A stretch of DNA of 64,000 nucleotides from the human T2T-CHM13v2.0 reference genome, Homo sapiens. The stretch is taken from the NCBI RefSeq assembly GCF_009914755.1, contig NC_060940.1; one strand, given 5' to 3'. Position numbers and translations under genes: made by a program. Shown here piece by piece: positions 31,770 to 52,973 of this stretch. The notes beneath the pieces are model-generated. The model was given only the letters and a program-made list of their open reading frames with translations, did not search any database and was not told where the DNA came from. The first letter of the stretch is position 1. Every line of letters begins with the position of its first letter.

Positions 31770-32394
31770 GAGCCAACAGCGGATGTAAACTACATCGTCA
31801 TGCTGACATGTGCTGTGTGCCTGGTGACCTACATGGTCATGGCCGCCATCCTGCACAAGCTGGACCAGTTGGATGCCAGCCGGGGCTGCGCCATCCCCTT
31901 CTGTGGGCAGCGGGGCCGCTTCAAGTACGAGATCCTCGTCAAGACAGGCTGGGGCCGGGGCTCAGGTGAGGGGCGCGGCGGGGTGGCAGGGCCTCCCCTG
32001 CTCTCACTGGCTGTGCTGGTTGCACCCTCTGGGAGTGAGTCTCGTCGCAGGCGTCAGAACAAGGCAGTTTTTGCAGTGCTGTGTGAAGGGCTCGTGTGTT
32101 CATCCTGGGAATGACCTCGTGAGCACTCACTGTCCCTGAGGACTAGGACAGCTCCTAGCTGGAAGTAGGTGCCAGTCAGTCAGGGTGGGCAGCCCACGTT
32201 CTACACAGTAGCGTAGCCCCACAAGTTACGTGAGCATCGCTACCACTGTGGGAGACCATGCATCCACCCGCGATCCTGACTGCATAGCTCGTCTCTCAGA
32301 CGGAGGCGCCAGCACCCTCCCCGTGGCTGTTTCTTCAATACCTCCATTTTCCTTTCTTTGGAATTGCCCTTCTGGCATTCCCTTTTTGTTTTCG

Positions 32395-33043
32395 TTTTTC
32401 TTTTTTTGGAGACGGAGTCTCGCTCTGTTGCCCAGGCTGGAGTGCAATGGCGTGATCTTGGCTCACAGCAACTTCCAGCTCCTGGGTTTAAGCGATTCCC
32501 CTTAAGCGATTCTCCTGAGTAGCTGGGAGTACAGGTGCACACCACCACACCCAGTTAATTTTTCACCATGTCAGCCAGGCGAACTCCTGACCTCAGGTGA
32601 TCCGCCTGCCTCGGCCTGCCAGAGTGCTGGGATGACAGGTGTGAGCCACCACACCTGGCCGTGTTCCCATTTTTTATTTCCATGCTGCTTTCATCTTCAT
32701 TTCCCAGTTCTTTCTTTTGATTACCTACTTTTAAAAACTGTCGGCCGGGTGCGGTGGCTCACACCTGTAATCCGAGCACTTTGGGAGGCTGAGGCAGGCT
32801 AATCACGGGGTCAGGAGATCGAGACCATCCTGGCTAACGGTGAAACCCTGTCTCTACTAAAAAATACAAAAAAATTAGGCCGGCGTGGTGGCAGGCGCCT
32901 GTAGTCCCAGCTCCTCGGGAGACTGAGGCAGGAGAATGGCGTGAACCCGGGAGGCGGAGCTTGCAGTGAGCTGAGATTGCGCCACTGCACTCCAGCCTGG
33001 GTGACACAGCAAGACTCCATCTCAAAAAAAAAAAAAAAAAAAA
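32395..33043. mobile_element. Inverted Alu pair in intron 26 (antisense ~32395-32660; sense AluY-like ~32743-33043)
   Basis: Alu consensus; GAGATCGAGACCATCCTGGCTAAC diagnostic. Confidence 0.9.
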
Positions 33044-50300: not shown

Positions 50301-52973
50301 CACGGTAAAGATATTAATACAAAGAGAATACAGCTTTATGATAAAAGATGCTCAATGAAGGATGAATTAGGGATATACTGAGAATGGGGAAGGAAACTAT
50401 CATCTCAGAAGTCAGCAGGCAGTAAGCAAGAGGAGGAATCAATATAGCAACAGTTTGGATCAGACTGTACAGTTTTTTTTGTTTTTGTTTTTGTTTTTGT
50501 TTTTCTGAGATGGAGTCTCGCTGTGTCACCCAGGCTGGAGTGCAATGACGTGATCTTGGCTCACTGCAACCTCCGCCTCCCAGGTTCAAGTGATTCCCCT
50601 GCCTCAGCCTCCCGAGTAGCTGGGATTACAGGCGCCTGCCACCACCCCCGCCTAATTTTTTGTATTTTTAGTAGAGACGGGGTTTCACCGTATTAGCCAG
50701 GATGGTCTCAATCTCCTGACCTCGTGATCCATCCGCCTCGCCCTCCCAGAGTGCTGGGATTACAGGCGTCAGCCACCGTGACCGGCTCAGACTGTACTCT
50801 TCTAGCCATCTGAAATACGTTTTCTAGGTAGAGATAGATTGTGTAAGGGTACAGTTGTGAGGATAACAGAAACATGGCAGATTATTTAAAATCATCCTGA
50901 AAGTGGTGCTTTATCTGATGAAAGTGATTGTAATCCATAGGGAAATGTTTCAACGTGCGCAAGCGTTGCGGCGGCGGGCAGAGGACTACTACAGATGCAA
51001 AGTAAGGAGCTTCCTCCCCGCAGTTGCAGGATAGTTCAGTGCTGATGCAGATGATGCCACGGCCCTTAGACTCTCTCAACATTCAATTTCTCATGTGTTG
51101 GCTTTTTCAGATCACCCCTTCTGCAAGAAAGCCTCTTTGCAACCGGGTAAGTTTGCTTGTTTTCCTTGCTTTTGGACATAGTCTGCCAGGTCAGGACATG
51201 GATACATTTTTCTCCCTACGGCTCTGTGCTCAAGCCCTGCAGAGGGAGATGGCAGAGAGGAAGGCTGCCTACAAGCATCACAGTCCCATCCCTGTTGGTA
51301 ACTGTGTTGCGCAAAAACACCTTCATCCCCACCCAGTGGGGCCCCCATCTAATATTCTAAGTATCAGAGGTTCCGTATTTGTAATAGCAAATGGGCCCTG
51401 ACTGTAAATTAGTGAAGAGTGAATGTAACTTATTACCCACAGGGACAATTCCAAATGAGGGCCTTAAATGATGCTCAGCTAAGCTGGTTCTTGTGTGGCC
51501 TCTGTACCTTCAAAAGCTGCCGAGTCCTATGATTACACGTGATGGGACTTGTACACTTGAAGTGAAACACAGTTTTAAAACTTGCTTTGTTTAGAATTCC
51601 CACCTCATTTTTCCATGGACAAAAGTATTCTTTATGTCCTAGTGCACTTACAATTTGGTATTACCTGGGAGTGAAAAGAAATATTACAGCCATGCCTAAC
51701 TGACTTCTTGAGGTAAGATTGTTCTGTCAGAAAACCCTCTCCCAGTTCCCCTGCAGCTCTTCAGGAATCCACATCTCTCCAGAGCTCTTTGTTCTCATGG
51801 GTGGCACCTCCAGAGTGAAGAAGATCCTTTGTCAAGAAGGGAAACAGAGGGGAAATGAGAGGGTCCTGCAGGCAGAGCTGGAATCAACTTCCACTCTGCC
51901 TCTTGCAAGCTGTGTGACCCTGGGCACAATTTCTCCTTCCTCTGGAAACCTCTGTTTTCTTAGATTTGGAGCAGGGTGGTCACACTGACCTTGCAGAGTT
52001 CTGAGAATCAGAGACAGAACATAAAAGGCCTGGAAAACATTCTCCAAAAAGAAGCTGCAACATGTGTGGACAATGGGCTTTTCATGCCTCTCTTACTGTC
52101 TCTTACTGTCTATTGACCTGGTGCAAGAAACATGCTCTGGTGATGGCTGTGAGGGAGGAATGAGGATAGACATAGACACTCCTGTGTCTCAAACATGCTT
52201 CTTTATTACTCTGTTATGACTCTGTCTTCCCTGGGGCAGGACCCCAGCCTGCCTACATTTGCAGACAGACACAGTGGCATGTGGAGACAACAGTGTGTCC
52301 CAATGACTTTTCTTTACCCCCTAGCTGTCGGCAGTACTCAGTGGAAGGGTGATATTATGACACTGACACTGCTATTTTGAAACCTGGAGGATGGAAAGGT
52401 GCAAAAATCTATCACCAGCAACAGAAGGTGCAGACTGTGTTGGTGGCGGTAATTTTGTCCATCAAATGAATATGTGTGAAAACATTCCCTCCTTTGGCCC
52501 TACAGGTCAGAATGGCGGCAGTGGAGCATCGTCATTCTTCAGGATTGCCCTACTGGCCCTACCTCACAGCTGAAACTTTAAAAAACAGGATGGGCCACCA
52601 GCCACCTCCTCCAACTCAACAACATTCTATAATTGATAACTCCCTGAGCCTCAAGACACCTTCCGAGTGTGTGCTCTATCCCCTTCCACCCTCAGCGGAT
52701 GATAATCTCAAGACACCTCCCGAGTGTCTGCTCACTCCCCTTCCACCCTCAGCTCTACCCTCAGCGGATGATAATCTCAAGACACCTGCCGAGTGCCTGC
52801 TCTATCCCCTTCCACCCTCAGCGGATGATAATCTCAAGACACCTCCCGAGTGTCTGCTCACTCCCCTTCCACCCTCAGCTCCACCCTCAGCGGATGATAA
52901 TCTCAAGACACCTCCTGAGTGTGTCTGCTCACTCCCCTTCCACCCTCAGCGGATGATAATCTCAAGAAACTAA
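38335..52973 (+). CDS. NPIPA: NPIPA-family (nuclear pore complex interacting protein / morpheus) gene, 8 coding exons, 369 aa; paralog unresolved (NPIPA6/7/8/9-like)
   Basis: join(38335-38397,42710-42838,46458-46557,46721-46865,49817-49924,50941-51001,51111-51146,52506-52973); all GT-AG and phases consistent; MFCCLGYEW...[17 protein letters not shown]...PQRMIISRN*. Confidence 0.93.
38890..39070 (+). promoter_or_regulatory. C/T-rich tract upstream of the alternative NPIP start exon, possible promoter
   Basis: Pyrimidine-rich run with CCCCTCCCC motifs just before ATG 39104. Confidence 0.4.
39104..39178 (+). CDS. NPIPA: Alternative NPIP first exon encoding signal-peptide-like [25 protein letters not shown]
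   Basis: 75 nt, GTGAGT donor at 39179, phase 0 compatible with exon 2; basic N-terminus plus hydrophobic core. Confidence 0.75.
41640..42470. mobile_element. MER30-like DNA transposon split by two sense Alus
   Basis: CACAAATTTGTAAACTTTCTTAAAACATTA ... TCATCAGCTATTGTTAGTGTTAGTGT...AAAAGATTGGA halves flank the Alus. Confidence 0.7.
42710..42838 (+). CDS. NPIPA: NPIPA exon 2 (includes hydrophobic segment)
   Basis: [43 protein letters not shown]; AG/GT boundaries. Confidence 0.93.
43180..43700. mobile_element. Probable degenerate ERV1-class LTR fragment in NPIP intron 2
   Basis: CTGACAACAGACAGCTTAACAGGAAAAG...ACAAAGTTCCTCTG-type motifs; family not resolved. Confidence 0.35.
46113..46154. repeat. 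(TG)n microsatellite at an Alu tail
   Basis: Seen directly. Confidence 0.9.
46458..46557 (+). CDS. NPIPA: NPIPA exon 3
   Basis: [33 protein letters not shown]. Confidence 0.92.
46721..46865 (+). CDS. NPIPA: NPIPA exon 4
   Basis: [47 protein letters not shown]. Confidence 0.93.
49817..49924 (+). CDS. NPIPA: NPIPA exon 5
   Basis: [35 protein letters not shown]. Confidence 0.93.
50941..51001 (+). CDS. NPIPA: NPIPA exon 6
   Basis: [20 protein letters not shown]. Confidence 0.92.
51111..51146 (+). CDS. NPIPA: NPIPA exon 7
   Basis: [12 protein letters not shown], 36 nt. Confidence 0.92.
52506..52973 (+). CDS. NPIPA: NPIPA exon 8 with coding VNTR
   Basis: [17 protein letters not shown]...[19 protein letters not shown] repeats...SRN*. 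Confidence 0.95.
52650..52966 (+). repeat. Coding VNTR, unit lengths 57/69/57/69/59 bp
   Basis: CTCAAG unit starts at 52650, 52707, 52776, 52833, 52902, 52961. Confidence 0.92.

What the first reader, a model, noticed from the sequence alone, without database searches (positions are those of the whole stretch)
31770..52973. Intact in-frame polycystin-1 (TM1-PLAT-TM2/3)::NPIPA fusion ORF hidden at the 3' end of the pseudogene
Seen: every stop or frameshift I found in copy 1 lies in exon 23 or earlier, and exons 24-31 read open. Exons 30 and 31 end in phase 0 and NPIPA exon 2 starts in phase 0. The truncated PKD1P lacks the PKD1 terminal exon, so the first obvious terminal exon/polyA downstream is NPIPA's. 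ATG 31800 (MLTCAV..., TM1) spliced through exon 30 into NPIPA exons 2-8 gives 273+348 = 621 aa (660 with exon 31). Known: PKD1P-NPIPA read-through transcripts are annotated in this family, generally as non-coding. Inference: isoforms that start internally or skip the broken exons could encode a multi-pass chimeric membrane protein resembling the start of the GPS-cleaved PC1 C-terminal fragment with an NPIP tail.
Basis: partly seen in the sequence, partly recalled or inferred. Interest (0 to 1): 0.8.

Follow-up and report, generated by a model that had tools for sequence, protein, structure and literature searches.

The report
Known PKD1-pseudogene–NPIPA6 read-through fusion frame
The tail of a dead copy of the polycystic-kidney gene PKD1 can be spliced in frame onto its neighbour NPIPA6, but RefSeq lists no RNA at this locus that does so, the open frame is no more than chance predicts, and such PKD1-NPIP fusions were already published in 2025.

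Summary
From ATG 31800 (PKD1 Met3078, exon 26), exons 26-30 joined to 42710 give 621 aa. Adding exon 31 (36052-36168) gives 660 aa. Both end at the NPIPA6 stop, 52973. All six lesions I found in PKD1P1 lie in exons 1-23.

The fusion needs junctions that RefSeq does not list here. All three read-through RNAs use a 238-nt exon made of exon 31, a retained 68-nt intron 31 and exon 32. That shifts the frame to a stop at 36256-36258, leaving a 341-aa ORF with 49-50 upstream AUGs. Only 2 of 12 splice combinations tested stay in frame.

Both junctions are in RefSeq at paralogues: PKD1P4-NPIPA8 (621 aa) and PKD1P6-NPIPP1 (576/800 aa). The splice signals are identical.

The open frame is unremarkable. 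Simulated P(no stop) is 0.44-0.50. dN/dS is 0.41, against 0.44 in the dead exons. Exon 31 carries stops in 3 of 6 copies.

Cell Genomics 2025 (PMC12790995) reports Iso-seq PKD1-NPIP fusions at six paralogues including A6, with ORFs up to 843 aa and unknown role. Verdict: real, probably neutral, already known. I found no report of the protein.

The parts
30141..30603 (+). PKD1P1 exon 23 as annotated (463 nt against 630 in PKD1). It has a nonsense codon and a 1-nt deletion in the PKD1 frame. The RNAs use an internal donor at 30603 instead of the position that aligns with the native donor (30760). ATG 30366, in a non-PKD1 frame, opens the longest ORF running into exon 24.
31056..31212 (+). PKD1P1 exon 24, open in the PKD1 frame
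31393..31645 (+). PKD1P1 exon 25, open. It holds the GPS region with the H-L-T cleavage motif.
   Evidence: (GPS PF01825, 16.4 bits, below the 22.5-bit cut-off)
31770..31965 (+). PKD1P1 exon 26. ATG 31800 corresponds to PKD1 Met3078, inside TM1, so the ORF opens directly with a hydrophobic segment.
33462..33632 (+). Exon 27, first part of the PLAT domain
   Evidence: PF01477, E 1.2e-07, profile positions 15-73 of 117; polycystin-1 chain 6a70_B, E 2.5e-33
33719..33862 (+). Exon 28, second part of the PLAT domain
   Evidence: PF01477, E 0.00024, 22.2 bits against a 23-bit cut-off, profile positions 76-109 of 117
33957..34167 (+). Exon 29, with the second hydrophobic segment
34258..34384 (+). Exon 30, with the third hydrophobic segment, ending in phase 0 at PKD1 Lys3350. 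The RefSeq NPIPA6 mRNA starts inside it at 34281. AUG 34370 is in the PC1 frame.
36052..36168 (+). Exon 31 (117 nt), open here, ending in phase 0 at Glu3389. Its donor is identical to the one RefSeq shows in use at PKD1P6. No RefSeq RNA uses it here.
36169..36236 (+). Intron 31, 68 nt here (a 19-nt deletion against PKD1's 87 nt). It is retained in every annotated RNA of this locus and shifts the frame.
36237..36289 (+). Exon 32 (53 nt). After the retained intron it is read out of frame, giving a stop at 36256-36258. Its donor at 36289 is the one the annotated RNAs use.
36290..36600 (+). Intron 32 and the start of exon 33. The local alignment to PKD1 ends at about 36600, but my query stretch of PKD1 ended there too, so the true boundary of the copy was not determined.
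38266..38397 (+). NPIPA6 exon holding the annotated start codon at 38335. Entered from exon 30 or 31, it gives a stop.
38457..38542 (+). Alternative 86-nt exon of NR_172900.1 and NR_036447.2. It does not rescue the PC1 frame.
42710..42838 (+). 129-nt NPIP exon, the acceptor of the proposed fusion. Pfam's NPIP profile starts at its first residue. It also holds a hydrophobic segment.
   Evidence: PF06409, E 1.6e-16, profile positions 1-43 of 207
46458..51146 (+). NPIPA6 coding exons 46458-46557, 46721-46865, 49817-49924, 50941-51001 and 51111-51146
52506..52973 (+). Last NPIPA6 coding exon, with a proline-rich tandem repeat at 52650-52967 and the stop ending at 52973

Best explanation
The open frame is a young, neutrally drifting leftover of a segmental duplication. 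It is not a hidden gene. A copy of PKD1 that reaches at least into exon 33 was placed head-to-tail upstream of NPIPA6.

Shown:
- The copy is only about 2.5% diverged from PKD1 in exons 24-31 (35 differences in 1376 nt).
- All six lesions lie in exons 1-23.
- The PC1 frame of exons 24-31 is still open.
- Exons 30 and 31 and the 129-nt NPIP exon share phase 0, so two splice paths join PC1 Met3078-Lys3350 or Met3078-Glu3389 (TM1, PLAT, TM2, TM3) to the whole NPIP domain.
- At this locus RefSeq lists only RNAs that retain the 68-nt intron 31 and leave from the exon-32 donor. These stop at 36256-36258, far upstream of the last exon junction.

Inferred:
- Those RNAs are nonsense-mediated-decay targets.
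- The main role of PKD1P1's 3' exons is as alternative 5' exons and leader for NPIPA6 transcripts.
- In-frame fusion isoforms arise here as minor splice products, as at the paralogues.
- They yield little or no stable protein.
For: - The 621- and 660-aa frames exist only with junctions 34384>42710 or 36168>42710.
- 3 of 3 RefSeq read-through RNAs here give 341 aa and no fusion.
- The 238-nt exon is exon 31 + a 68-nt intron + exon 32.
- 2 of 12 splice combinations reach the NPIPA6 stop, and none of the 3 annotated ones does.
- 50 AUGs precede ATG 31800 in NR_172901.1, which puts it 5.5 kb into a 7.7-kb RNA.
- P(no stop) is 0.44-0.50 for 35 random substitutions.
- dN/dS against PKD1 is 0.41 in exons 24-31 and 0.44 in exons 2-22.
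- The six copies carry 59 distinct point variants in exons 24-31: 33 nonsynonymous, 24 synonymous and 2 stops. The stops affect 3 of 6 copies.
- The NPIPA6 select mRNA starts inside exon 30 and uses the 238-nt exon as 5'UTR.
- Earlier work called the fusion transcripts frameshifted pseudogene products that seldom maintain an ORF.
Against: - Exons 24-30 are open in 6 of 6 copies, and the only indel is an in-frame 3-nt deletion. Scaling the stop rate (0.69 stops per 35 substitutions) to the 54 distinct variants in these exons gives about 1 expected stop, so P(0) is roughly 0.35. That is weak, but it points towards retention.
- Pairwise dN/dS is below 1. The same holds in the dead exons, and the PKD1 branch is included in the comparison.
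- Splice signals for both fusing junctions are identical to those of the paralogues where the junctions are annotated.
- Iso-seq in the literature finds long in-frame fusions, seen in at least five molecules each, at six paralogues including A6.
- NR_123722.1 at PKD1P6 has only 2 AUGs ahead of an 800-aa fused ORF.
Confidence: 0.75

Rival explanations
1. Isoforms that start internally, or skip the broken exons, are translated into a multi-pass chimeric membrane protein with PC1 TM1-PLAT-TM2-TM3 and an NPIPA tail. The protein has a function, for example targeting NPIP to membranes or interfering with polycystin-1.
For: - The frame is intact.
- Hydrophobic segments lie at residues 1-19, about 207-225 and about 248-266 of the model, with one more in the NPIP exon.
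- PLAT and NPIP profile matches are present.
- Splice signals are competent.
- In the fused isoforms the stop would lie in the last exon, so they would escape the usual decay rule (inference).
- Published Iso-seq fusions have ORFs up to 843 aa.
- RefSeq paralogue RNAs carry fused ORFs.
Against: - No RefSeq RNA at this locus has the junctions.
- No RefSeq CDS anywhere in the family uses PKD1-derived coding sequence. Every NPIPA CDS listed starts in NPIP-side exons.
- There is no CpG-island-like window around 31.1-32.2 kb.
- The 5' end of NR_123722.1 maps 106 nt inside exon 23, as a truncated cDNA would.
- There is no extra constraint.
- The fragment lacks PC1 TM4-11 and the C-terminal tail, because the copy stops well short of those exons.
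- Two literature searches for translation evidence gave nothing on PKD1P1.
Confidence: 0.07
2. The translated product, if any, is a minimal fusion. An RNA starting at the annotated NPIPA6 start (34281) that splices 34384>42710, or 36168>42710, would use AUG 34370, the first AUG of that RNA and in the PC1 frame. It would make a 353-aa or 392-aa NPIPA protein whose N-terminus is 5 or 44 PC1-derived residues in place of the canonical 21-residue start.
For: One search shows that in both hypothetical RNAs AUG 34370 is the first AUG and reads through to the NPIPA6 stop. By contrast, the select mRNA has 9 AUGs before its annotated start. The published study says 6 of its 10 fusions are not multi-exonic on the PKD1 side.
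Against: These junctions are not annotated here. The AUG context is weak at +4. I have no data on whether 34281 is a real start site or a truncated cDNA end, and the region is not CpG-island-like.
Confidence: 0.1
3. The 341-aa ORF (567 aa from ATG 30366) that the annotated RNAs do contain is the product: a truncated PC1 fragment with TM1-PLAT-TM2-TM3 and a 29-residue frameshifted tail, with no NPIP part.
For: This is the only PC1-frame ORF present in all 3 annotated read-through RNAs. PKD1P5 has the same 341-aa ORF.
Against: It sits behind 44-50 upstream AUGs. It ends several exon junctions before the last exon, so decay is expected. There is no constraint signal.
Confidence: 0.05

Closest known systems
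PKD1-NPIP fusion transcripts described from Iso-seq (Cell Genomics 2025;5(10):100977, PMC12790995; I read section 10 whole and the other PKD1 passages)
   Same: The loci are the same: six NPIP paralogues next to PKD1 pseudogenes, with A6 named. The idea is the same: multi-exon PKD1 parts kept in frame with NPIP exons, ORFs up to 843 aa, role unknown. My counts for comparison are 845 aa at PKD1P4-NPIPA8 and 800 aa at PKD1P6-NPIPP1 from the first in-frame AUG.
   Different: The paper's isoform table (Table S5) is a supplement that I could not open. I cannot say whether the A6 isoforms include the 34384>42710 or 36168>42710 junctions, or which start codon they use.
RefSeq read-through records at paralogues: PKD1P4-NPIPA8 NR_146336.1 and PKD1P6-NPIPP1 NR_123721.1 / NR_123722.1
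   Same: They have the same exon 30>129-nt exon junction (P4) and exon 31 (117 nt)>129-nt exon junction (P6), with identical splice signals. The fused ORFs from the same Met are 621, 565 and 576 aa.
   Different: They are other loci, and RefSeq files them as non-coding. P4's own exon 31 has a stop and is skipped. P6 has an in-frame tandem copy of the 129-nt exon and alternative 3' exons, so its ORF ends before the last junction. In P4 and P6 the upstream extension (224 aa) is in the true PKD1 frame of exon 23. In the window it is an out-of-frame leader.
Polycystin-1 C-terminal fragment (solved chains such as 6a70_B and 8z6f_A)
   Same: Residues Met3078-Glu3389 are 302 of 312 identical to PKD1 of the same assembly. 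The exon 27 and exon 29 translations match polycystin-1 chains at E 2.5e-33 and 1.4e-41. The region holds PLAT and three hydrophobic segments.
   Different: It starts 29 residues after the GPS cleavage threonine, inside TM1, so the stalk is missing. It lacks everything after exon 30 or 31, which from my recall of PC1 architecture means the remaining eight TM helices, the TOP domain and the coiled-coil tail.
Truncated duplicate genes that became functional (SRGAP2C, NOTCH2NL, ARHGAP11B), the analogy drawn by the 2025 paper
   Same: It is a partial duplicate of a disease gene, lies in a segmental-duplication block, and is transcribed.
   Different: Here I found no sign of constraint and no report of protein. 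Whether it acts in a dominant-negative way is untested.

Membership tests
Polycystin-1 (PKD1) derived coding sequence | Exon-by-exon homology to PKD1 exons 24-31 in the PKD1 reading frame | tested here: met
   Exon lengths are the same. There are 35 substitutions in 1376 nt, no indels and no stops. 302 of 312 residues from Met3078 are identical.
Polycystin-1 (PKD1) derived coding sequence | PLAT/LH2 domain | tested here: met
   PF01477 matches the exon 27 piece (32.9 bits against a 23-bit cut-off) and the exon 28 piece (22.2 bits, just below the cut-off). Together they cover profile positions 15-109 of 117.
Polycystin-1 (PKD1) derived coding sequence | Full 11-TM core with the C-terminal tail | tested here: not met
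   The annotated PKD1P1 exons end at exon 30-32, and the alignment to PKD1 was followed only into exon 33. Only three PC1 hydrophobic segments are in the ORF.
NPIP family (Pfam PF06409) | Match to the NPIP profile from its first position | tested here: met
   The 42710 exon matches at E 1.6e-16 (profile 1-43 of 207). The 46723-46863 piece matches at E 4.6e-16 (profile 78-122).
Read-through (conjoined) transcript of neighbouring genes | Annotated RNAs joining exons of both genes on one strand | tested here: met
   LOC131696449 has three RefSeq RNAs spanning 9687-53022.
Protein-coding fusion gene | A transcript at this locus that carries the in-frame junction | tested here: not met
   0 of 3 RefSeq read-through RNAs here carry it. 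The published Iso-seq names A6 among the fusion loci, but the isoform details are in a closed supplement.
Protein-coding fusion gene | A start codon that scanning ribosomes can reach | tested here: not met
   44-50 upstream AUGs in the annotated RNAs. An internal start site could not be tested, because no CAGE or read data were available.
Protein-coding fusion gene | Purifying selection on the ORF compared with the neighbouring dead exons | tested here: not met
   dN/dS is 0.41 against 0.44. Stops are 2 of 59 distinct variants. Simulation gives P(no stop) of 0.44-0.50. This covers one haplotype and six paralogues only.
Protein-coding fusion gene | Evidence of translation (footprints, peptides) | not testable with these tools
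   None of the 15 papers listed contains the term PKD1P1, and nothing relevant came.

The most novel reading that the evidence does not exclude
Minor isoforms of the PKD1P1-NPIPA6 locus, starting near exon 23-26 or at 34281, are translated in brain or testis into a hominid-specific membrane-anchored NPIP protein. It would carry polycystin-1's TM1-PLAT-TM2-TM3 module, and the PLAT module would change NPIP's location or perturb polycystin-1 trafficking.
Probability: 0.05. Interest if true: 0.6.

Novelty: already known. Interest (0 to 1): 0.25.

Why it matters
[quoted passage not shown] It could matter for PKD1 dosage biology and for antibody or peptide assays that assume the pseudogenes make no protein. 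As it stands, the finding mainly shows three things. RefSeq's non-coding label at this locus follows from one retained 68-nt intron. The PKD1P1 3' exons serve as NPIPA6 leader exons. And the fusion ORFs already reported by Iso-seq carry no detectable selective signal in this assembly.

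Tried and rejected
Selection on exons 24-31: rejected. dN/dS equals that of the dead exons, the simulation shows no surprise, and stops occur at about the simulated rate across the six copies.

A genomic deletion at the end of exon 23: rejected. The window aligns through to 30760 with only a 1-nt gap. 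The 463-nt exon comes from an internal AAG|GT donor at 30603.

A nonsense mutation as the cause of the 36256-36258 stop: rejected. The stop is a frameshift consequence of the retained 68-nt intron 31.

Other splice paths through the 132-nt, 86-nt or exon-32 exons: none of them keeps the frame.

An internal promoter. A simple CpG scan flags the exon 1 island strongly (five windows from 9000 to 10699). Between 29 and 39 kb only two windows pass: 29300-29799 (observed/expected 1.27) and 30200-30699 (0.71). Nothing passes around intron 25 or near 34281. I did not follow up the two windows. The bacterial promoter scanner was not used because it does not apply.

Rfam scan of 29000-53100: one hit only, Metazoa_SRP at 35520-35637 inside a masked repeat.

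Literature on translation. In one search, none of the 15 listed papers of 446 holds PKD1P1. Searches gave gene lists or PKD1 papers without pseudogene-protein data, and (passages only) were not relevant.

Not done.
- I ran no protein-database word search, Atlas search or structure prediction on the fused protein. These tools take only unspliced references or stored proteins. The single exons are 12-155 aa, so the length filter would hide a 621-886-aa fusion. A three-step chain through stored hits was judged not worth its cost once the 2025 paper was found. The statement that no fusion is annotated as coding therefore rests only on the RefSeq table of this assembly.
- I could not open Table S5 of PMC12790995, which holds the isoform sequences.
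- No reads, CAGE, Ribo-seq, other haplotypes or ape genomes were available.

Full report
WHAT IS THERE. The window holds PKD1P1 (9687-34881), its read-through gene LOC131696449 (9687-53022) and NPIPA6 (34281-53022), all on the + strand. The 196-nt exon at 31770 is PKD1 exon 26, 34258-34384 is exon 30 and 36052-36168 is exon 31.

CHECK OF THE OBSERVATION. All exons involved have AG/GT borders and the stated lengths.
- Splicing ATG 31800 through exon 30 to 42710 gives a 621-aa ORF.
- Adding 36052-36168 gives 660 aa.
- Both run to the NPIPA6 stop at 52973.

ATG 31800 is PKD1 Met3078, inside TM1 and 29 residues after the GPS threonine. Exon 30 ends at Lys3350 and exon 31 at Glu3389. 302 of 312 residues equal PKD1 of the same assembly.

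Pfam finds PLAT in the exon 27 and 28 pieces, and NPIP from the first residue of the 42710 exon. The exon 27 and 29 pieces match solved polycystin-1 chains. A hydropathy scan finds three PC1 hydrophobic segments and one in the NPIP exon.

The lesions of PKD1P1 all lie upstream:
- a 7-nt insertion in exon 1;
- nonsense codons in exons 8, 18 and 23;
- a 4.3-kb deletion covering exons 15-16;
- a 1-nt deletion in exon 23.

The first in-frame ATG is at 30366, in a non-PKD1 frame of exon 23. It reaches the PKD1 frame of exon 24 because the annotated RNAs use an internal donor at 30603.

WHAT THE ANNOTATED RNAS DO. All contain a 238-nt exon, 36052-36289. Aligned with PKD1, this exon is exon 31 (117 nt), then intron 31 (68 nt here, 87 in PKD1), then exon 32 (53 nt). 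The retained 68 nt shift the frame, and the ORF ends at 36256-36258 after 341 aa (567 aa from ATG 30366).

Of 12 exon combinations between exon 30 and the 129-nt exon that use native or annotated sites, 2 keep the frame: 30>129 and 30>31>129. The 3 annotated combinations do not.

In NR_172901.1, ATG 31800 lies 5.5 kb from the 5' end, behind 50 AUGs. PKD1P1's own RefSeq RNA ends at 34881 in intron 30, so NPIPA6's 3' end is not the only one available.

PARALOGUES. RefSeq lists five more PKD1P/NPIP pairs on chromosome 16. I fetched them and PKD1. Of 8 read-through RNAs examined, 3 carry a PC1::NPIP ORF from the same Met:
- NR_146336.1 (PKD1P4-NPIPA8): exon 30>129-nt exon, 621 aa.
- NR_123721.1 (PKD1P6-NPIPP1): exon 31 of 117 nt>129-nt exon, 565 aa.
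- NR_123722.1 (PKD1P6-NPIPP1): the same junction, 576 aa.

The other 5 do not: 306 aa at PKD1P3, and 341 aa at PKD1P5 and in the three RNAs of the window.

NR_123722.1 is a 2.9-kb RNA whose first in-frame AUG has only 2 AUGs before it and opens an 800-aa ORF. Its 5' end maps 106 nt inside exon 23, as a truncated clone would, and its stop lies before the last junction.

The exon 30 donor, the exon 31 donor and the 129-nt exon acceptor are letter-for-letter the same in the window as in PKD1P4 and PKD1P6. Nothing in the splice signals bars the junctions here.

IS THE OPEN FRAME MORE THAN CHANCE?
- PKD1P1 differs from PKD1 by 35 substitutions in exons 24-31. Placing 35 substitutions at random, with the observed spectrum, leaves the frame stop-free in 44-50% of 20,000 trials.
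- Nei-Gojobori dN/dS against PKD1 is 0.41 for exons 24-31 and 0.44 for exons 2-22, which are certainly dead.
- Over the six copies there are 59 distinct point variants in exons 24-31: 33 nonsynonymous, 24 synonymous and 2 stops. There is also one in-frame 3-nt deletion.
- The stops are in exon 31. One is shared by PKD1P2 and PKD1P4 and the other is in PKD1P3.
- Exons 24-30 are open in 6 of 6 copies. Scaling the simulated stop rate gives about one expected stop, so this is a weak hint at most.

LITERATURE.
- A 2017 preprint (10.1101/116087, passages seen) said the PKD1-NPIP fusion transcripts give a pseudogene through a splicing frameshift. That matches the 238-nt exon.
- Genome Biology 2020 (PMC7419210, passages seen) notes an abundant PKD1/NPIP fusion EST and says such fusions seldom keep an ORF.
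[quoted passage not shown] The role is stated as unknown.
- A 2026 preprint cites these fusions as previously reported.
- The term PKD1-NPIP occurs in 5 held papers (3 listed, copies merged), and all three works were consulted.
- I found no report of a protein.

HOW IT MOST LIKELY WORKS. The duplication put a near-identical PKD1 fragment upstream of NPIPA6. RefSeq runs read-through RNAs from exon 1, which lies in a strong CpG island (GC 0.76-0.84, observed/expected about 0.9), into NPIPA6. The NPIPA6 select mRNA itself begins inside exon 30 and uses the 238-nt exon as leader. It has 9 AUGs before its start codon, and the first of them (34370) opens a 73-codon uORF in the PC1 frame. The PC1::NPIPA frame is a phase coincidence that appears only when intron 31 and exon 32 are left out. 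I judge it a neutral by-product (0.75). The rivals are a translated chimera (0.07), a minimal fusion from AUG 34370 (0.1) and the 341-aa truncated fragment (0.05).

VERDICT. The sequence facts are right. The reading is right for the family but unproven for this locus and for any protein. The idea is already in print. Interest is low to moderate.

Noticed in passing
window 34281-38397: The 5'UTR of the RefSeq-select NPIPA6 mRNA is built from PKD1 exon 30 (part), exon 31, retained intron 31 and exon 32. It holds 9 AUGs before the annotated start at 38335. The first of them (34370) is in the polycystin-1 frame and opens a 73-codon uORF ending at 36258.
   Followed up: partly
window 36169-36236; paralogue PKD1P4 at chr16:18342096-18342212 and downstream: Intron 31 is 68 nt in the window because of a 19-nt deletion against PKD1's 87 nt. 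PKD1P4's sequence lacks that deletion, which fits NPIPA8's 257-nt exon against 238 nt here. The intron is retained in the annotated RNAs of both.
   Followed up: partly
window 30592-30760: A 1-nt deletion in exon 23 is followed 10 nt later by the internal AAG|GT donor at 30603 that all annotated PKD1P1 RNAs use. The position aligned with the native donor (30760|GT) is intact but unused in RefSeq.
   Followed up: partly
window 31646-31769: MIR6770-2 (31710-31769) fills the 3' half of the 124-nt intron 25 and ends exactly at the acceptor of exon 26. Rfam gave no hit there at gathering score.
   Followed up: no
L014/L004: chr16:15119886-15120014 and 15115493-15115621 (PKD1P6-NPIPP1): The 129-nt NPIP exon is tandemly duplicated. 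Both copies are spliced in frame, repeating 43 residues in the fused ORF. The duplication is also mentioned in PMC7419210.
   Followed up: no
window 23406-23420: A 4.3-kb genomic deletion relative to PKD1 removes most of exon 15, all of exon 16 and part of intron 16.
   Followed up: yes
window 35520-35637: Rfam Metazoa_SRP match (71.6 bits against a 70-bit gathering score) inside a masked repeat at 35491-35714. It is probably an Alu-type element, not an SRP RNA gene.
   Followed up: no
window 52650-52967: The last NPIPA6 coding exon is a tandem repeat (period 69/126 nt, 94% matches at period 126) encoding the proline-rich C-terminal repeats.
   Followed up: no
window 29300-29799: One 500-nt window in intron 22 passes simple CpG-island thresholds (GC 0.62, observed/expected 1.27). 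This may be an artefact of strand-skewed composition.
   Followed up: no
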